Source: a virus (Duplodnaviria > Caudoviricetes). From it: 64,000 bases of DNA. A model generated the notes under the pieces. That model did not search any database, was not told the DNA's origin, and saw nothing but the letters and a program-made list of their open reading frames with translations. The stretch is taken from the IMG/VR virus record IMGVR_UViG_3300037067_016777, positions 128,001 through 192,000 of that record. One strand, 5' to 3'. Each line of letters starts with the position of its first letter. Position 1 is the stretch's first letter. This document shows positions 2,928 through 16,806 of the stretch, in pieces. A program made the translations under genes and the position numbers.

Positions 2928-3959
2928 TCAGCCTTTCAACAAAACTAATTTTCTATTTTGCATTTGAATAATAGTTTTATCCTTATATCTTGATCGAATA
3001 AGGTCATGCATATCTACATCTTGATACATCCAAGCATACTGCTCTTCGTTTGGCTCTGGTAATTCATAGAGCAACATATTTGATATTCTTCTAATATGAT
3101 CCAACAGTTTTTCAAATTTTTCTATTGGATTTTCTTTCGAAAAGTGGTGTAGTACAGCCAGAGCAAAAACACAATCAACGCTTTGGCTGCATTGCTCTAC
3201 GACATCAAAGAAGTTATCATTACGTGCAACAAACCCAATTTTATCAAACAATAGTTTCAACACATTATATCTAGTGCGATTGTATTCAACACCTATTGCT
3301 GAATTAAGTAGCTTTTTTATGCTATAGAGGACATGACCGTGGCAGCTACCAAGATCGAGCACTGATTTAATCTTGTGCTCTTCGACAATACCTTTAATAG
3401 CCAGTTCTTTTATATCGTTGTTGCAGTAATTCCAATCTTCGAAGTCTGGATGTGGTATAGATTGATACATTAGAGTTGGATATAACTGTCTTAAATCGTC
3501 TACGATTTTCTGCCACTTATCTTGTCGCTCGCAAATTGTAAATCGAATAGGATAACCTAAAGCAAATAGAATTGATATTCTATGCATGCCATCCCAAATA
3601 GATATACCGCCGTCATTTTCGATTTTTACACAAATGGGACCAAAGTAATGCGTGCACCCGTTTATCACACGATTCATCATTTCGTGTTCTACAAAATTAG
3701 GTGCTATTCTAAATAGACGCTTGAAATTTTCATATTGTTTTGTAATATCATACTCGTTATTTAATATTCCATTCCAAACACTACCATTAATATCTAATTC
3801 ATTCTTTAGCCATTGATAATATGGTGTCTCCACCATCGCAATATCTATATTCTCTATCCACATCTTAGCCGTTTTATAATGTGGAAATTCAAGAATTTTT
3901 AACTTTAATTCTTCGCTCCATGGATCACAACCCAAATTAACAACTTTATAATTGTCCAT
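2928..3959 (-). CDS. ParB/Srx-like N-terminal domain fused to class I SAM-dependent methyltransferase
   Basis: IWDGMHRISIL (ParB-like DGxHR); VLDLGSCHG, GVEYN, CVFALAVLHH (MTase motifs). Confidence 0.7.
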   Translation of the reverse strand: MDNYKVVNLGCDPWSEELKLKILEFPHYKTAKMWIENIDIAMVETPYYQWLKNELDINGSVWNGILNNEYDITKQYENFKRLFRIAPNFVEHEMMNRVINGCTHYFGPICVKIENDGGISIWDGMHRISILFALGYPIRFTICERQDKWQKIVDDLRQLYPTLMYQSIPHPDFEDWNYCNNDIKELAIKGIVEEHKIKSVLDLGSCHGHVLYSIKKLLNSAIGVEYNRTRYNVLKLLFDKIGFVARNDNFFDVVEQCSQSVDCVFALAVLHHFSKENPIEKFEKLLDHIRRISNMLLYELPEPNEEQYAWMYQDVDMHDLIRSRYKDKTIIQMQNRKLVLLKG

Positions 3960-10867: not shown

Positions 10868-11260
10868 CTAAAAAGAGATTGGTACTCTTAGTTCTTCTGG
10901 TAAATTGTCGCCTTCGCAATGCTCTGGATGCTCATTGAGATGATGCCAGCGACAAAGAACAATAAGATCTTCTTTCTTTTCACACCAAAGCCTAGTGTAA
11001 CGTAAATGGTGAACTTCTAAATCATGTTTTTCATCGCATCGTTGACATTTATGATTTGCATTACGCAGCGCTTGCCTGCGTCTGCACTTCCACCATTTTG
11101 TTTTTAGATATTCATTATATGGTAATTTTGGGTAGCATTTACCATTAATTGTTAATATTATTTTATGCCTTTTTGTCTGCCGAGTCTTCTCTCGTCTCTC
11201 TCGTTTTGCTCGCTTGCGTAAAATCTCAATGCGTTCATCTTCAGTAAGTTTAGTTGGCAT
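10868..11260 (-). CDS. HNH endonuclease with Arg/Lys-rich N-terminal helix
   Basis: YLKTKWW..RR...CQRC...LEVHHLRY...DLIVLCRWHH. Confidence 0.85.
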   Translation of the reverse strand: MPTKLTEDERIEILRKRAKRERREKTRQTKRHKIILTINGKCYPKLPYNEYLKTKWWKCRRRQALRNANHKCQRCDEKHDLEVHHLRYTRLWCEKKEDLIVLCRWHHLNEHPEHCEGDNLPEELRVPISF

Positions 11261-11261
11261 G

Positions 11262-11642
11262 ATGATCTAGATCAGGACCCTTTTCCCGGCAGGGATAGTG
11301 GCCAAACCTTAAAACAAACGCTCTTTTATCAGTACTCAATGACGTTAAAGTTGGAGTTCATGGAAGCCTTTTTATCCCCGCACGGCCCAGGTCATAGGGT
11401 TGGAGGTTGCCTGGAGTTTTTTAATGGCTTCTTACACTACCGCTGCGGCATCCTGTTCCGGTTCGTGCCGGTGCCGCTTTCCCGTCGCCAATCTGGTTGA
11501 AAGCATCATGGCTTGTACTTTTGACGCCTCATGACTCAACGCTCGGCTCGACTTTAACGAGAACCACGATGATTAGGTTCTATCACAGATCATTCTTGAT
11601 AAAAGCACGCGTGACAACTAAACTGCCAATTTATATTGTCAC
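11262..11642 (-). ncRNA. Putative large structured RNA directly upstream of the HNH gene
   Basis: No long ORF, raised GC, nested complementary pairs: 11323-31/11597-605, 11338-42/11590-94, 11343-51/11551-59, 11358-62/11530-34, 11363-68/11426-31, 11387-91/11410-14, 11445-50/11472-77, 11561-65/11576-80, 11611-17/11636-42. A G-U wobble favours the minus strand. Confidence 0.55.
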
Positions 11643-12779: not shown

Positions 12780-13256
12780 ATGAAGAGATTCGTAGGTGTC
12801 ATGTGTTTATTGATTATTTTCGTTTCAGTGAACACAGCGTTTGCACGTGGGCGTGGTGGGCGTCGGCAATCTAGTGGTGGAGGACAAACCTCTGCCTCTC
12901 AAAACGCAACAGTGGATAAGGCACCCACCTATGAAGTTGAGCATCGACTTCTCAACGCCATCAATGCTATTCGAGAGAAATATGGGTTGAAGGCTCTTAT
13001 ATTAGATGTACAATTACACCGCACTGCCCGCCAACACTGTGGATGGATGGCAAATGCTCACAATATGGTCCATTCTACTTTCCCATATGCTGAGAATATT
13101 GCCATGGGCCAACCCGATGTTGACGACGTTATGAATGCTTGGATGAACAGTAGTGGACATCGTGCTAATATCCTAAATCCAAGCCATACCAAAGTTGGGT
13201 TATCTGGATATTACTCTCCAAGTGGGAGTCCGTTTTGGTGCCAACAGTTCGAATAA
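12780..13256 (+). CDS. Secreted CAP (SCP/PR-1) domain protein
   Basis: Signal peptide ending AFA; INAIREKYGL, AENIAMGQ, WMNSSGHRANIL. Confidence 0.9.
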   Translation: MKRFVGVMCLLIIFVSVNTAFARGRGGRRQSSGGGQTSASQNATVDKAPTYEVEHRLLNAINAIREKYGLKALILDVQLHRTARQHCGWMANAHNMVHSTFPYAENIAMGQPDVDDVMNAWMNSSGHRANILNPSHTKVGLSGYYSPSGSPFWCQQFE

Positions 13257-13359
13257 AGCACTCCCTAGATGGGTGGTTCAGATGAAGCTTAAATTACCGC
13301 CCATTGGATTTTACTACAATCGTTCACTCGCAGTTTCAGAAGAAATACGAAAGGAAATC

Positions 13360-13629
13360 ATGGCTAAAATTGAATTGGATATGGGTGTCGAAGCACGCGA
13401 TCGCGTTACTGGACTCAAGGGAATTATTACCGGGAAGACGATCTACATCAACGGTTGTGTTCAATGGCTTTTGAAGCCCCCTGTTGATAAGGACGGCAAG
13501 CTCGTTGATGGTTGTTGGATTGATACAATTCAACTAGAAGTAACAGGTCCAGGTATTTCAATCGAGACACCAGAGGTTACTCCGGGTGGCCCCAGGGTGG
13601 ACGCACCACCAACGGCTTATCGCAGTTAA
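13360..13629 (+). CDS. Conserved small phage protein (SH3-like)
   Basis: ARDRVTGLKGIITG...GCVQWLLKP...W.D..QL pattern; AAGGA RBS before MAKIEL. Confidence 0.7.
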   Translation: MAKIELDMGVEARDRVTGLKGIITGKTIYINGCVQWLLKPPVDKDGKLVDGCWIDTIQLEVTGPGISIETPEVTPGGPRVDAPPTAYRS

Positions 13630-13668
13630 CGAAAACACCAAAACTATCAGACTAATAGGAGAATTGAA

Positions 13669-14406
13669 ATGGCAAAGCTGCATCAGATTGTGGCGTTGGT
13701 GAAATCGAAGAAGGCACAAGCGGAATCGGGCCTAACGAAATTGTATCATCTTCTCCAGAAGACCGACCTGCTCGGCGGCATTGCGAGGAACTATCGCCCC
13801 GTCAATGACGAGGATACCGACAAGTTGCCGTCCGAATCCAAGCGGGTTCAGCTGCGCATCCCTGAGGCCATCGAACAGGCGAAGGATGTTCTTGGTCCGA
13901 TGATTGACCTCGTTGCCACTCAGGATGTTGCGAACACGCAGGCTTTCGCCGATATCGTTATCGACGGCACTGTCATCGTCGCACATGTTCCGGCAACACA
14001 TCTGTTGTTCCTTGAACACCGACTTGAAGATCTGTCTACTTTCGTCAGCAAGCTTCCGACTCTTGATCCGTCCGAGGTTTGGCGTCTCGACGACCAAGAG
14101 GGCTGTTATGCGACGGAGCCGTCCGAAACAGTTCGGACGAAGAAGATTCCGCGCAACAATGTCAAGTATGACGCGACCGACAAGCATCCAGCACAGGTCG
14201 AGACATGGATGGAGGACGTTCCTGTTGGCCGCTGGATGACAACGAAGTTCTCCGGTGCGATTCCCGAGGCCGACCGGCGAGCAATGGTCGTCCGAATCCG
14301 CAAGATGCAAGACGCCGTTAAGACGGCGCGATGCGAAGCGAATTGCATCGACGTTCAGAACGTTTCGGTAGCTAAGGATTTCCTCGGCTACATCTTCGGC
14401 GATTAG
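13669..14406 (+). CDS. Conserved uncharacterised helical protein (resembles the DUF7873-type family, recalled from memory)
   Basis: MAKLHQIVA..., R.Y.P..E....LP.ES.RVQ, VPATHLLFLE..L, LPTLDPSE.W, TKK.PR..VK..ATDKHPAQVE...EDVPVG.W...KFSGA, AVK.AR.EAN; AGGAG RBS; visibly higher GC than flanks. Confidence 0.85.
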   Translation: MAKLHQIVALVKSKKAQAESGLTKLYHLLQKTDLLGGIARNYRPVNDEDTDKLPSESKRVQLRIPEAIEQAKDVLGPMIDLVATQDVANTQAFADIVIDGTVIVAHVPATHLLFLEHRLEDLSTFVSKLPTLDPSEVWRLDDQEGCYATEPSETVRTKKIPRNNVKYDATDKHPAQVETWMEDVPVGRWMTTKFSGAIPEADRRAMVVRIRKMQDAVKTARCEANCIDVQNVSVAKDFLGYIFGD

Positions 14407-14439
14407 ACGCATCAGAAGATCTATAAGATCGATGCGTTT
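14405..14439 (+). other. Stem-loop at the stop codon (possible processing or boundary hairpin)
   Basis: agacgcatc/gatgcgttt with inner gatct/agatc. Confidence 0.6.
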
Positions 14440-14449
14440 GATTTATAGT

Positions 14450-14846
14450 TAGTACAGACTCAGACTTTTGTTCAGATTCAGAGACGGTTAACAGTCCAGG
14501 TTCGAATCCTGGTCCCCGCACTTACGAAGAAAACACGCGGGGGTAGCCCAACGGCAGAGGCAAAGCCGCCCATCAATTTCAGACTATTACTACAGACTTA
14601 GCATTACGTCGAGGACCAAATCGAAGTCTCCAGCCAAATTGACCCCGTGGATGCCTGTGCAACTCAGGTCGGCCGCTCTTGGGCAGATTAATTAAGCGGT
14701 CGTCGTACAATCGAAGTACACATGGGTATAAGACTTAGGCTGTAGATTAAATGGAGATAGTTGGTCTGTGAATTCGACGCGTAAATTGCTTGCAACAATT
14801 TCACACAGCCCCGGTGGACCGGATATGTCCACTGGGGCGCTTTTTT
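14450..14846 (+). ncRNA. Putative ncRNA with two circularly permuted tRNA-like modules (YrlA-like topology) and CAGACU repeats
   Basis: Module 1 (14483-14570): T-arm ccagg-TTCGAAT-cctgg, 7-bp acceptor tccccgc/gcggggg, UA, D-arm gcc..GG..ggc. Module 2 (14644-14726): gcctg-TGCAACT-caggt, cggccgc/gcggtcg, gtac/gtac. Long enclosing stem 14601-32/14752-89. Confidence 0.8.
14808..14846 (+). terminator. Rho-independent terminator
   Basis: gccccggtggac-cggatat-gtccactggggc followed by gcTTTTTT. Confidence 0.85.
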
Positions 14847-14874
14847 ATCAGATAAAAATATCTAAGAGGTGTAA

Positions 14875-15174
14875 ATGAGTGAAAAAAGATGCCCTACTTG
14901 TGGGCTATTTTTAATAAAGGAGATTGTTGAATTATCTCCTGCTTATATGTGGGATTGCCCTAACTGTGGCCGTGAAAACTTTCAAAGATCTATAACCCTA
15001 GCAATGTCAGATGAAGATCGCTTTCACATGGGATTAGGTCCAGAGGAAAGTGGATGCTGGCAGAGTTATCCAGACACTGTGATATGCCGCTTTTGTGAGC
15101 AACAGTATAAAACTAAGCATGTAAATCGATCTCGTGAAGATAATGATGAGGGGGAAGAAGATGATTTAACGTAG
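14875..15174 (+). CDS. Zinc-ribbon protein
   Basis: CPTC, CPNC, CRFC; GAGG RBS. Confidence 0.7.
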   Translation: MSEKRCPTCGLFLIKEIVELSPAYMWDCPNCGRENFQRSITLAMSDEDRFHMGLGPEESGCWQSYPDTVICRFCEQQYKTKHVNRSREDNDEGEEDDLT

Positions 15175-15534
15175 GTGTGTAAAGACAATCACACCATACT
15201 CATCATCAGAAATAGAATAATAAACACGTCGAATGCCACGTAGTCTAATCATATTCTGACATTTGATACAAGGACAAGCATTACCAAGGGAATTATCGCT
15301 TAATATTCTAACGACAAAAATTTCCGACCCACGGTTTAGTTTTCTCACCAATCTGGCTTCAGCATGAGAGCATGCTCTGGCGTGTGGCTGGCGGCATATA
15401 ACATTATTGGCAGTAACAACAGTCCCATCATTTCTGATACCAACAGCACCAAGCCGATACATACGTTTAATACCGTTATCGCCCTTAGCAGCAATTGTTT
15501 TAGCAAGACGGAAATAACGTTCTACTTTCGACAT
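15166..15534 (-). CDS. Cytidine/dCMP deaminase-like zinc protein
   Basis: HAEARL ... ACPCIKC ... GIRRVYYS. Confidence 0.8.
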   Translation of the reverse strand: MSKVERYFRLAKTIAAKGDNGIKRMYRLGAVGIRNDGTVVTANNVICRQPHARACSHAEARLVRKLNRGSEIFVVRILSDNSLGNACPCIKCQNMIRLRGIRRVYYSISDDEYGVIVFTHLR

Positions 15535-15604: not shown

Positions 15605-16153
15605 ATGATTCAATCAATAAGGTTTAAGACAGATTGGCGATGTTTCAAAGAAGGCGATCTATTTGAGTTTAATCCCAGCGTCAATCTATTGGTAGGCGAT
15701 CAAGGGACAGGGAAAAGTTCTCTTCTATCGTTGTTCCGGACGTCAATATACAACAAGCCGGATTTCAGGAAGTTAGTCGACCTCAAAAGTGATGGCGCGG
15801 TCGAACTGCGGTTATTCGACTTCGAACACGATAACCCAAGAACACGGGGATACGTCAAATTCGCGGCTGATGTATACATGCGTTATCAGTCGCACGGTAA
15901 CTGTGTTCTTGCTTTATTTGATGTTTTAGATGAGCAGGCCGATACACGGAAGTGTTTCGTGCTCGACGAACCAGATATGGCTTTGAGCGTCCGCTCGATA
16001 AATAAAATCACTGCGAAACTACAGGCAACGAACCATCAGGTTATCGCTGCCGTACATAATCCTTTTCTGATACGTGCTTTCTCGCAGGTTTTGTCTATCG
16101 AGCACAAGCGTTGGATGTCGTCCGAAGAGTTCATCACACTTCATATTCAATGA
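15605..16153 (+). CDS. Small ABC-type (AAA_21-like) ATPase
   Basis: GDQGTGKSS Walker A, SHGN signature, FVLDEPD Walker B, AVHNP H-loop. Confidence 0.85.
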   Translation: MIQSIRFKTDWRCFKEGDLFEFNPSVNLLVGDQGTGKSSLLSLFRTSIYNKPDFRKLVDLKSDGAVELRLFDFEHDNPRTRGYVKFAADVYMRYQSHGNCVLALFDVLDEQADTRKCFVLDEPDMALSVRSINKITAKLQATNHQVIAAVHNPFLIRAFSQVLSIEHKRWMSSEEFITLHIQ

Positions 16154-16806
16154 GGATAAACATGAGTACGGTATTATTTATCAATTTTATTTGTATATGG
16201 ATTGCTATAGCCGCATTACAAATAAGGGTTTCTTTAGCGTCAAAACGATTGAATATGTATCTAAAAACGATACAGCTTATGTCTGACAGACTTAATACTC
16301 AATCTGACATACTCAAGATTCATTCTATGCGAATGGATATTCAATCTACACGTGTAGATTCTATTCAACATCCGATGCAACCGCCCAAAGATATCATATC
16401 TGGTTTCTCTAGTAATTATAGATTCCTGTCGAATTTCTTTCCGGTTACCATGGTCGTTGATGGTGTCGAATATCCGTCGCTTGAAAATGCATACCAGGCG
16501 GCGAAAACGACTGATCTACAAGAAAAGCTATCTTTCGTTTCGATGACAGCAGGGCAAGCTAAGCGGGCTGGTAGCAAAGTTACATTACGTCCGGATTGGT
16601 GTGATGTTCGTATCGGTATCATGGAAGAGTTGGTTCGTAAGAAATTTACGGAAAATCACGACTTAGCCGATGCACTGATGGCGACGGGCACTCTTGAATT
16701 GGTCGAAACTAATGACTGGGGAGACTGTTTCTGGGGTGTCTGCGAAGGAAAAGGCGACAATTGGCTTGGCAAGATATTGATGAAAGTACGGTCCGAACTA
16801 AAATAG
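16150..16806 (+). CDS. NADAR (YbiA-like) domain protein with N-terminal hydrophobic segment
   Basis: FLSNFF, ENAYQAAK, M..LVRKKF, LVE....DCFWG...G.NWLGKILMKVR. Confidence 0.88.
   Translation: MRINMSTVLFINFICIWIAIAALQIRVSLASKRLNMYLKTIQLMSDRLNTQSDILKIHSMRMDIQSTRVDSIQHPMQPPKDIISGFSSNYRFLSNFFPVTMVVDGVEYPSLENAYQAAKTTDLQEKLSFVSMTAGQAKRAGSKVTLRPDWCDVRIGIMEELVRKKFTENHDLADALMATGTLELVETNDWGDCFWGVCEGKGDNWLGKILMKVRSELK

What the first reader, a model, noticed from the sequence alone, without database searches (positions are those of the whole stretch)
13641..14748. Repeated CAGACU-like hexamers in the RNA's unpaired linkers and beside the gene's own RBS
CAGACT occurs at 14455, 14461, 14580 and 14593, with variants CAGATT 14473, AAGACT 14730, TAGGCT 14736 and TAGATT 14743. 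They form three clusters flanking the tRNA-like modules. One more CAGACT (13648-53) lies 3 nt before the AGGAG RBS of the upstream gene. Inference: these are binding sites for the protein, with translational autoregulation titrated by the RNA (CsrA/CsrB-like sponge logic).
Basis: partly seen in the sequence, partly recalled or inferred. Interest (0 to 1): 0.75.

Follow-up and report, generated by a model that had tools for sequence, protein, structure and literature searches.

The report
Six-base repeats in phage tRNA-mimic RNA
A jumbo-phage RNA made of two tRNA look-alikes carries rows of a six-base word (consensus B-A-R-R-Y-U, e.g. CAGACU) in its unpaired stretches, the word recurs beside the ribosome-binding site of the neighbouring unknown gene (DUF7873), and this pattern holds across phages and bacteria, making these words the best candidate docking sites for that protein.

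Summary
All nine hexamers sit where stated. Across 95 non-redundant relatives the RNA after DUF7873 genes carries four tandem B-A-R-R-Y-U hexamers 5' of tRNA-like module 1, two after it, two in the inter-module linker and one after module 2. Sequence identity is 0.54 at lag 6 against about 0.2 at other lags. Variable positions do not co-vary, so base pairing does not explain the tracts. Ro60-adjacent Y RNAs in the same genomes lack them.

One correction: TAGGCT 14736 and TAGATT 14743 lie in a co-varying helix strand, so they are not linkers.

The leader copy is conserved in the window's clade. Across the family it is enriched but present in a minority: tandem pairs in about 10% of genes against 0.7% of control ORFs, in 9 of 49 protein clusters.

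The reading (protein sites plus autoregulation) is consistent with this but unproven; no binding or expression data exist. A CsrA/CsrB sponge is a poor analogy, because there is no regulon and no GGA motif. Ribosomal-protein-type feedback fits better.

The scan has noted the DUF7873-RNA pair before in at least 52 genomes, and six-base repeats in five. I found no paper on it.

The parts
13648..13653 (+). Leader hexamer CAGACU, 3 nt 5' of the Shine-Dalgarno sequence
   Evidence: Scores 7.4 bits against the family hexamer matrix, in the top 9% of DUF7873 leaders. Aligned relatives carry 2-3 tandem hexamers at this place.
13657..13661 (+). Shine-Dalgarno AGGAG, 7 nt before the ATG at 13669
   Evidence: The leader folds no better than shuffles (z = -0.16).
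13669..14406 (+). DUF7873 gene (245 aa)
   Evidence: Pfam PF25283, E 1.1e-94. Single copy in the 269-kb phage record. AF2 model pLDDT 89 with no solved structural relative found. Homodimer model passes its controls.
14407..14437 (+). Hairpin between the stop codon and the RNA (ACGCATC...GATGCGT); possible processing or pause site
   Evidence: MFE and centroid fold. No promoter-like site between gene and RNA. Function not tested.
14450..14454 (+). P1 5' strand (UAGUA), pairs with 14588-14592
   Evidence: Family helix GGAGCG/CGCUCC: 85% paired, and all 6 pairs show compensatory changes.
14455..14484 (+). Tract A: five in-phase hexamers CAGACU CAGACU UUUGUU CAGAUU CAGAGA
   Evidence: The family has four tandem B-A-R-R-Y-U hexamers here (A2 90%, U6 90%; identity 0.54 at lag 6).
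14496..14561 (+). tRNA-like module 1 in permuted order: T arm 14496-14512, acceptor 3' strand 14513-14519, capping loop, acceptor 5' strand 14537-14543, D arm 14546-14561
   Evidence: Covariation: T arm 100%, acceptor 98.7%, D stem 99% paired. The CM R1 hit spans 14446-14608 at 127.7 bits.
14574..14585 (+). Tract B: CAAUUU CAGACU, followed by AU
   Evidence: Two hexamers are conserved at this place across the family.
14588..14592 (+). P1 3' strand (UACUA)
14593..14604 (+). Tract C: CAGACU UAGCAU, the linker between units 1 and 2
   Evidence: Family consensus is CAGNCU CAGCAU U.
14607..14619 (+). 5' strands of the long-range helices that close unit 2: CGUCGA (14607-14612, pairs with 14774-14779) and GACCAA (14614-14619, pairs with 14761-14766)
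   Evidence: Paired in 77-90% of sequences, with 3-4 pair types per position.
14627..14635 (+). Helix strand UCUCCAGCC, pairs with 14738-14746
   Evidence: 9 bp, 81% paired, 4-6 pair types per position.
14650..14719 (+). tRNA-like module 2 in permuted order: T-like arm (CCUG UGCAACU CAGG), capped acceptor-like stem (CGGCCGC / GCGGUCG), D-like arm (GUAC AAUCGAA GUAC). End coordinates are approximate.
   Evidence: The three helices are 97-99% paired. The equivalent module in relatives scores 30-37 bits against Rfam YrlA (gathering score 69).
14730..14735 (+). Tract D hexamer AAGACU, the conserved unpaired position 3' of module 2
   Evidence: Family consensus is uAAGACUGA, then a variable helix strand, then CUUAAAC.
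14738..14746 (+). Helix strand GGCUGUAGA.
14808..14848 (+). Intrinsic terminator (12-bp stem, then a U run) that ends the gene-RNA unit
   Evidence: Conserved in relatives.

Best explanation
The gene at 13669-14406 and the roughly 400-nt RNA at about 14446-14850 form one conserved two-part module. The RNA is two Y-RNA-like units, each a stem closing onto a back-to-front tRNA look-alike.

Its unpaired tracts are built from a six-base word, B-A-R-R-Y-U. CAGACU is the second most common form in the family. There are four words 5' of module 1, two 3' of it, two in the inter-unit linker and one 3' of module 2.

I propose that these words are the docking sites of the DUF7873 protein, probably acting as a dimer, so that several copies load onto one RNA. 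I also propose that the one to three copies of the word directly 5' of, or overlapping, the gene's Shine-Dalgarno sequence let surplus protein block ribosome loading on its own mRNA. That would be autogenous control of the ribosomal-protein or T4 RegA type, keeping protein matched to RNA.

Shown: the motif, its six-base period, its conservation without pairing, its restriction to DUF7873-linked RNAs, and its enrichment beside the SD.
Inferred: that DUF7873 is the binder, and that binding represses translation.
The job of the particle itself (tRNA-mimic decoy or scaffold) stays open.
For: 1. Linkage. The RNA lies directly after the gene on the same strand in 143 of 153 unique loci from phages and at least seven bacterial lineages. 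Five genomes that seemed to lack it each hold exactly one copy elsewhere (134-139 bits). In Herpetosiphon aurantiacus it is 1.8 Mb from the gene.

2. Periodic motif. In tract A of 95 non-redundant RNAs, A is at position 2 in 90%, U at position 6 in 90%, R at position 3 in 92% and Y at position 5 in 87%. Identity is 0.54 at lag 6 and 0.51 at lag 12, against 0.15-0.26 at other lags. A coding control gives 0.32. A three-hexamer score of 14 bits or more occurs in 114 of 141 RNAs and in 1 of 141 matched coding segments.

3. Not base pairing. P1 and the T, acceptor and D helices co-vary, but proposed hexamer-to-hexamer pairings fail at their variable positions (13-24 of 43 sequences unpaired). Positions 3 and 5 within a hexamer do not co-vary, and the non-pairing A3/C5 combination is the most common.

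4. Specificity. Ro60-adjacent YrlA-like RNAs in the same Streptomyces and Deinococcus genomes lack the tracts: best three-hexamer score 3.5 and 6.9 bits, against 23.5 and 18.6 bits.

5. Leader copies.
- All five close relatives carry 2-3 tandem hexamers ending at the SD, and so does Gordonia phage Phendrix.
- Tandem pairs of 10 bits or more occur in 15 of 153 leaders, against 0.7% of 757 control ORF upstream regions.
- A single hexamer abutting the SD occurs in 20% of leaders against 4.2% of controls (odds ratio 5.8, P = 3e-5).
- With one representative per 65%-identity cluster, 7.7 of 49 are positive against 2% in controls (P about 6e-6).
- Herpetosiphon keeps CAGATTCAAATT in its leader although its RNA is unlinked.

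6. Dimer. The homodimer model scores 0.75, and the best of 3 controls scores 0.00. That mark was reached by 20 of 30 proteins solved as pairs of one chain and by 1 of 23 solved as single chains. Runs agree in at least 96% of contacts, and partner pLDDT is at least 89. My own alignment was used, so these counts hold only roughly. This supports dimerisation, not RNA binding.
Against: - There are no binding, footprint, transcript or reporter data of any kind.
- The protein has no recognisable RNA-binding fold.
- The tandem leader motif is absent from about 85-90% of family members. High-GC actinobacterial genes appear leaderless, so autoregulation at the SD cannot be a general property of the family.
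- The window's own leader has only one good hexamer; the second is degenerate and out of phase.
- A two-fold symmetric dimer does not obviously fit head-to-tail repeats spaced by six bases.
- The loci are phylogenetically related, so the P values are approximate. At 55% single-linkage clustering the cluster test loses power.
- Tandem B-A-R-R-Y-U is nearly its own reverse complement, so strand controls are weak.
Confidence: 0.45

Rival explanations
1. The hexamer tracts are real recognition elements, but for another factor rather than DUF7873. Candidates are a host single-strand RNA binder or nuclease, such as PNPase S1/KH domains (as on Deinococcus Y RNA), ribosomal protein S1, or an RNase. 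In this view DUF7873 binds or acts on the tRNA-like modules.
For: In characterised Y RNAs, single-stranded loops recruit effectors such as PNPase (PMC4201824). DUF7873 has many invariant acidic and histidine residues (E56, D80, D86, H173, E182, D183), which would suit an enzyme. It has no known RNA-binding fold.
Against: The tracts occur in phages and in at least seven bacterial lineages whose only shared, co-travelling component is DUF7873. The motif beside the DUF7873 SD is hard to explain if the binder is a general host factor. Ro60-linked Y RNAs in the same cells lack the motif.
Confidence: 0.2
2. The hexamers are structural RNA. They would form a non-Watson-Crick or weakly paired zipper, within one RNA or between RNA copies in a multimeric assembly, with no sequence-specific protein contact.
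For: A-R-N-Y-U is a quasi-palindrome, so tandem arrays can pair antiparallel with four of six positions matched. RNAalifold proposes a short pairing between tracts A and B. Cells paired reach 80-82% because A2 and U6 are invariant.
Against: Variable positions do not compensate: 13-24 of 43 sequences are unpaired there, about what base composition alone predicts. A3/C5 is the commonest combination within a hexamer. The window's own tracts A and B have no complementary CUGA/UCAG. This idea does not explain the copies beside the SD of the protein gene.
Confidence: 0.15
3. In this phage the leader CAGACT at 13648 has no function: the RNA motif is real, but the single leader match here is a decayed remnant or chance.
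For: There is only one good hexamer in the window's leader. The upstream AAAACT is 2 nt out of phase. The extended -10-like TGCTATAAT found upstream in relatives is missing here, and the gene starts 39 nt after the preceding ORF, so it may be read from a longer transcript. About 85-90% of family members lack a tandem leader motif.
Against: The hexamer aligns with the conserved hexamer column in all five relatives, while the flanks diverge. A consensus CAGACT within 10 nt of an SD is rare in controls: 1% reach 7 bits or more.
Confidence: 0.25
4. This is a true CsrA/CsrB-type sponge: the RNA's main job is to titrate a global translational regulator (DUF7873) away from many phage or host mRNAs.
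For: There are many sites on one RNA and a site at an SD.
Against: Outside the RNA, tandem hexamers in the 269-kb phage record occur at the shuffled rate (15 found against 9-14 expected), and none stands out at other gene starts. The RNA is a large structured molecule with two conserved tRNA mimics, which a pure sponge does not need. The protein is not CsrA-like. Host targets could not be tested because the host is unknown.
Confidence: 0.05

Closest known systems
YrlA-type bacterial and phage Y RNAs with Ro60/Rsr (Rfam RF02553; Chen et al. 2014, PMC4201824)
   Same: Both have a tRNA-like domain in the order T arm, loop-capped acceptor stem, D arm, closed by a stem formed from flanking sequence. 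Both contain large single-stranded regions, and two RNAs or units occur in tandem. Module 2 of relatives gives sub-threshold YrlA hits (30-37 bits). The family consensus has GCCGAACG, which fits the GNCGAAN0-1G Ro-site motif, just 5' of module 2.
   Different: There is no Rfam hit in the window even at E of 10 or less, and no TROVE gene in the phage record. In bacteria Ro60 is absent or 70-140 kb away. The co-travelling protein is DUF7873. The periodic hexamer tracts and P1 are absent from Ro60-adjacent Y RNAs of the same genomes.
Autogenous translational control by RNA-binding proteins of RNPs and phages (ribosomal proteins such as S8 and L20; T4 RegA and gp32). From general knowledge.
   Same: The protein's main site lies on a structured partner RNA, and a look-alike site sits at its own SD, so surplus protein would shut off its own synthesis. 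Here the same word occurs in the RNA tracts and beside the SD.
   Different: The site here is a short repeated word rather than a structural mimic. Control is inferred, not shown, and is present in only a minority of family members.
From general knowledge.
   Same: There are many repeats of a short motif on one non-coding RNA, and a copy at an SD.
   Different: The motif is B-A-R-R-Y-U in linear six-base tandem arrays, not GGA in hairpin loops. The protein is a 245-aa DUF7873, not a 61-aa CsrA. No regulon was detected in the phage. The RNA carries conserved tRNA mimics.
Proteins that read single-stranded RNA with a fixed period: TRAP ((G/U)AG triplets with 2-3 nt spacers), HutP (UAG repeats), and the Cas7 backbone of Cascade (6 nt per subunit). 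From general knowledge.
   Same: The pattern is a NAR triplet plus a 3-nt spacer repeated at an exact six-base period in unpaired RNA. The predicted protein self-associates.
   Different: No sequence or fold relation was shown. Cas7 chains top the Foldseek list only at E of about 0.01 and TM of about 0.1, which is noise level. The arrays have only 2-5 repeats.

Membership tests
DUF7873 (Pfam PF25283) | Full-length match above the curated cut-off | tested here: met
   317 bits against a cut-off of 27, E 1.1e-94, covering residues 1-243.
YrlA / Y RNA-like (Rfam RF02553) | Score at or above the Rfam gathering threshold (69 bits) | tested here: not met
   No match in window 13000-15500 at E of 10 or less. 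Relatives' module 2 scores 29.6-37.2 bits.
YrlA / Y RNA-like (Rfam RF02553) | tRNA-like domain ordered T arm, capped acceptor stem, D arm | tested here: met
   Read directly at 14496-14561 and about 14650-14719. Covariation in 43 and 95 sequences.
YrlA / Y RNA-like (Rfam RF02553) | Encoded within about 4 kb of, and on the same strand as, a Ro60/TROVE gene (criterion of Chen et al. 2014) | tested here: not met
   No TROVE match in the 269-kb record, which is 74% complete. Among five bacterial genomes with DUF7873, three have TROVE, none of them adjacent.
YrlA / Y RNA-like (Rfam RF02553) | GNCGAAN0-1G motif (putative Ro60 contact) near the 5' end | tested here: inconclusive
   The family consensus GCCGAACG fits the motif. 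The window has GUCGAGG at 14608-14614, one mismatch. Motif definition taken from PMC4201824.
CsrA/CsrB-type sponge system | Regulator of the CsrA family | tested here: not met
   The only Pfam hit is DUF7873.
CsrA/CsrB-type sponge system | GGA-containing motifs presented in hairpin loops | tested here: not met
   The repeats are B-A-R-R-Y-U in unpaired tandem tracts.
CsrA/CsrB-type sponge system | The motif also sits at the SD of a set of target mRNAs (a regulon) | tested here: not met
   Within the phage record only the DUF7873 leader and the RNA stand out; elsewhere tandem hexamers occur at the shuffled rate. Host mRNAs could not be tested.
Autogenous (ribosomal-protein-type) translational control | The leader carries a copy of the element found in the partner RNA, at or overlapping the SD | tested here: met
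   Window: CAGACT lies 3 nt before AGGAG. Relatives carry 2-3 tandem hexamers abutting the SD. Enrichment over control ORFs.
Autogenous (ribosomal-protein-type) translational control | The protein binds both sites and represses its own translation | not testable with these tools
   Needs EMSA, toeprinting or reporter assays.
Cas7/RAMP-like periodic RNA binders | RRM-like palm plus thumb fold | tested here: inconclusive
   Cas7 chains top the Foldseek list, but at E 0.013-0.1 and TM 0.09-0.13. They are not among the VIA-align top rows.

The most novel reading that the evidence does not exclude
DUF7873 is a new kind of sequence-specific single-strand RNA binder. It loads as dimers or higher oligomers onto six-base-periodic B-A-R-R-Y-U arrays. 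In this way it builds a Ro60-independent particle around a two-headed tRNA mimic, and it sets its own level through the same word at its SD. The particle would be widespread in phage tRNA islands and in many bacterial phyla.
Probability: 0.3. Interest if true: 0.8.

Novelty: new variant of a known kind. Interest (0 to 1): 0.6.

Why it matters
It often lies inside phage tRNA gene clusters. I found no paper describing it ('DUF7873' gave 0 papers).

Until now the pairing rested on gene neighbourhood alone. The hexamer tracts give a concrete, mutable candidate interface. They also give a simple prediction: the same word at the SD means feedback. That turns an unknown protein next to an unknown RNA into a set of direct experiments.

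If the tracts prove to be a periodic protein-loading platform, this would add a new mode of RNP assembly next to Ro60/Y RNA. It would also help to explain what phage-encoded tRNA mimics are for.

Tried and rejected
- RNA family searches. ARAGORN finds no tRNA or tmRNA in the window. Rfam 15 finds nothing in the region at E of 10 or less.
- Protein relatives. The PDB sequence profile search gave no hit at E of 10 or less. Foldseek against the PDB gave nothing at E of 0.001 or less. VIA-align wide gave only helical-hairpin-level matches, Z of 8.2 or less. The ESM Atlas shape search returned only the DUF7873 cluster itself. PHROGs gave no family for the protein.
- Hexamer-to-hexamer pairing. I tested the RNAalifold proposal and an A1:B2/A2:B1 zipper. 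Both were rejected because the variable positions do not compensate.
- A hexamer regulon in the phage. None found.
- Conserved neighbours of the pair in bacteria. None: 6PGD, an acyltransferase, a sulfotransferase, a sigma-54 activator, an ABC permease and PMT_2.
- Expression. No RNA holder was listed among public runs, only DNA metagenomes from groundwater and landfill, so expression and RNA ends could not be examined.
- Literature. The 2026 preprint on three tRNA-mimic families covers the skipping-rope, DUF2693-FD and salivarius-1 RNAs, not this RNA.
- Antisense strand as a control. It is unsuitable because the tandem motif is quasi-palindromic.
Full report
**What is in the window.** The ORF at 13669-14406 (+) is a full-length DUF7873 protein (PF25283, E 1.1e-94). 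It is followed by about 440 nt without a credible ORF, ending at a strong intrinsic terminator at 14808-14848. No promoter-like site lies between the gene and the RNA, so the two probably form one transcription unit. A small hairpin at 14407-14437 separates them. The window lies in a 269-kb virus record (a jumbo phage, 74% complete). That record holds one DUF7873 gene, one copy of the RNA and no Ro60/TROVE gene.

**Check of the observation.** CAGACT is not over-represented in the window as a whole (25 found, 25.0 expected), but it is clustered. The only + strand place in 64 kb with three or more YARAYT words within 45 nt is 14455-14473. CAGACTCAGACT is the best-scoring tandem pair in the whole phage record.

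**The RNA is a conserved family that travels with the gene.**
- Five related jumbo-phage contigs align along the whole RNA.
- I gathered 160 further loci from viral contigs and bacterial genomes and three cultured phages.
- nhmmer finds the RNA directly downstream on the same strand in 143 of 153 unique loci.
- Five genomes that seemed to lack it were searched whole with a covariance model of unit 1 (R1). Each holds exactly one strong match (134-139 bits). In two Nocardia genomes it lies just beyond my flank. In three Herpetosiphon genomes it is unlinked, 1.8 Mb from the gene in H. aurantiacus.
- Flanking genes in bacteria are not conserved.

The pair is therefore a self-contained module.

**Architecture**, given in window coordinates:
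- P1 5' strand, 14450-14454
- tract A, 14455-14484
- tRNA-like module 1 in the order T arm, loop-capped 7-bp acceptor stem, D arm, 14496-14561
- tract B, 14574-14585, then AU
- P1 3' strand, 14588-14592
- tract C, 14593-14604
- three nested long-range helices: CGUCGA 14607-12 with UCGACG 14774-79; GACCAA 14614-19 with UUGGUC 14761-66; UCUCCAGCC 14627-35 with GGCUGUAGA 14738-46. These enclose tRNA-like module 2 (about 14650-14719) and the tract D hexamer (14730-14735).
- the terminator

On a 43-sequence alignment, P1 is 85% paired, the T arm 100%, the acceptor stem 98.7% and the D stem 99%. Of the 21 pairs in these four helices, 19 show compensatory changes, and no shuffle reached the observed covariation.

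**The hexamers as a family feature.** In 95 non-redundant RNAs, tract A is almost always four tandem hexamers. The position matrix is:

| Position | Content |
|---|---|
| 1 | C/G/U |
| 2 | A, 90% |
| 3 | A/G, 92% |
| 4 | mostly A/G |
| 5 | C/U, 87% |
| 6 | U, 90% |

Sequence identity is 0.54 at lag 6 and 0.51 at lag 12. It is 0.15-0.26 at other lags, and 0.32 at lag 6 in a coding control. CAAGCU (33) and CAGACU (29) are the commonest forms. Tract B holds two hexamers followed by AU. Tract C reads CAGNCU CAGCAU U. Tract D reads uAAGACUGA. A three-hexamer score of 14 bits or more occurs in 114 of 141 RNAs, against 1 of 141 size-matched coding segments.

In cluster 3 only AAGACT (14730) sits at the conserved unpaired position. 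TAGGCT (14736) and TAGATT (14743) fall inside GGCUGUAGA, the 3' strand of a helix that co-varies. The window has UCUCCAGCC/GGCUGUAGA, and L001 has UUCACAAUC/GAUUGUGAA. Family-wide the helix is 9 bp, 81% paired, with 4-6 pair types per position.

**Are the tracts paired?** RNAalifold suggested a short pairing between tracts A and B. A-R-N-Y-U is also a quasi-palindrome, so I tested two registers. In both, only the invariant A2/U6 positions pair. The variable positions are unpaired in 13-24 of 43 sequences, roughly what base composition alone gives. Within hexamers, positions 3 and 5 do not co-vary, and the non-pairing A3/C5 combination is the commonest (109 of 284). The tracts are therefore conserved as sequence, not as helix. 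That is the signature of a single-stranded recognition element.

**Specificity.** In the same Streptomyces and Deinococcus genomes, the YrlA-like RNAs beside the Ro60 gene match model R1 only over the tRNA-like core (model positions 54-119). They have no hexamer tract: best three-hexamer scores are 3.5 and 6.9 bits, against 23.5 and 18.6 bits in the DUF7873-linked RNA. Ro60 is absent from two of five DUF7873 genomes tested and is 70-140 kb away in two others. The hexamers go with DUF7873, not with Ro60.

**The copy at the RBS.**
- In the window, CAGACU ends 3 nt before AGGAG, and the leader folds no better than shuffles.
- All five close relatives have two or three in-phase hexamers ending at or overlapping the SD, for example CAGACU UAGAUU UAGAGGAG and CAGUUU CAAACU GUGGAG, while the flanks diverge.
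- Gordonia phage Phendrix has GAAACU CAGACA AGGAG.
- Tandem pairs of 10 bits or more occur in 15 of 153 leaders (9.8%), against 0.7% of 757 control ORF upstream regions. They start at -23 to -43.
- Among genes with an SD-like element, a hexamer of 6 bits or more abuts the SD in 20%, against 4.2% of controls (odds ratio 5.8, P = 3e-5).
- Positives fall in 9 of 49 protein clusters. Taking one random representative per cluster gives 7.7 of 49, against 2% in controls (P about 6e-6).
- Herpetosiphon keeps CAGAUUCAAAUU in the leader although its RNA is unlinked. That fits a trans-acting binder.

There are limits. Most members lack the leader motif. High-GC actinobacterial genes look leaderless. The window itself has only one good copy. 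The P values ignore deeper relatedness.

**The protein.** The AF2 model is confident (pLDDT 89). It has four long helices, a sheet and a long conserved basic hairpin (RTKKVPRN...TDKHPAQV). I found no solved or predicted structural relative. The Cas7 chains at the top of the Foldseek list are at noise level. A homodimer model passes its controls: score 0.75, best of 3 controls 0.00. That mark was reached by 20 of 30 proteins solved as pairs of one chain and by 1 of 23 solved as single chains. Runs agree in at least 96% of contacts, and partner pLDDT is at least 89. My own alignment was used, so the counts hold only roughly. This supports self-association. It says nothing about RNA binding.

**Mechanism.** The most economical reading is that DUF7873 recognises the B-A-R-R-Y-U word in single-stranded RNA. 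Several copies would load on the 9-10 sites of the RNA to form a particle around two tRNA mimics. Where a leader copy exists, surplus protein would occlude the SD of its own mRNA. This is ribosomal-protein or RegA-type feedback rather than a CsrB-type sponge, for three reasons:
- the phage shows no other mRNAs with the motif;
- the motif is not GGA in hairpin loops;
- the RNA is a large conserved structure, so it is likely the functional partner and not merely a decoy for the protein.

The binder's identity and the regulatory effect are inferences. What the particle does is open. Possibilities are a decoy or scaffold for enzymes that recognise the tRNA elbow and acceptor, which would be in keeping with its place inside phage tRNA clusters.

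**Prior knowledge.** A full-text search for 'DUF7873' found no paper. The closest described system is YrlA/Ro60 (PMC4201824). A 2026 preprint on new bacterial tRNA mimics covers other families. This scan has reported the DUF7873-RNA pair before in at least 52 genomes, and it noted six-base repeats in five other phages. One of those notes cites Burroughs and Aravind (2016) as nearest in print, and I could not obtain that paper.
- the family-wide definition of the word and its period;
- the tests against base pairing;
- the contrast with Ro60-linked Y RNAs in the same genomes;
- the quantified leader enrichment;
- the unlinked Herpetosiphon case;
- the correction of two mis-assigned hexamers.

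Noticed in passing
L006:3390-3400 and 3545-3560; L007:3340-3352: In the actinophage versions (Gordonia phage Phendrix, Arthrobacter phage Mimi) the loop capping the acceptor-like stem begins with N-CCA (ACCA, UCCA), like a tRNA 3' end. The window's clade has ACUU instead. Chen et al. [quoted passage not shown]
   Followed up: no
window 13684-13689: A further CAGATT lies at codons 6-7 (Gln-Ile of the conserved MAKLHQI start), inside the ribosome footprint. Relatives have CARATT in 4 of 6. This may simply reflect coding constraint.
   Followed up: no
L009:1455-1475, also L011-L013: Relatives have an extended -10-like TGCTATAAY about 15-25 nt before the leader hexamers, so their mRNA would start almost at the hexamers. 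The window lacks this and has only 39 nt between the preceding ORF (13195-13629, phrog_16275) and the gene.
   Followed up: partly
L175:4300-4800: The two or three Ro60-adjacent YrlA-like RNAs of a Streptomyces genome share their own repeated flanks (GGUGCGCAGG...CUACUUC and CCGCCGACYCUGAUCUC), presumably the Ro60-binding stems. They are distinct from the hexamer tracts.
   Followed up: no
L095:2-1279 (- strand): In one Ktedonobacteraceae locus the gene-RNA pair sits next to a divergently oriented sigma-54 activator (RtcR-like class). This was seen only once among eight loci checked.
   Followed up: no
window 14875-15174 and 15605-16806: Directly after the terminator comes a 99-aa protein with several CxxC zinc-ribbon-like motifs. 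It is followed by two adjacent ORFs; the first (15605-16153) carries both the N-terminal (AAA_23/SMC_N) and C-terminal (AAA_21) pieces of an SMC/ABC-type ATPase, so this may be a split or compact ATPase.
   Followed up: no
window 10868-11642: Earlier notes of this scan flag a structured, ORF-poor segment next to a 130-aa HNH-like gene. I did not examine it.
   Followed up: no
L008 (Pseudanabaena phage PA-SR01): This distant DUF7873 gene (38% identity) is followed at once by a terminator, with no detectable RNA within 2.4 kb. Its genome was not searched for an unlinked copy.
   Followed up: no
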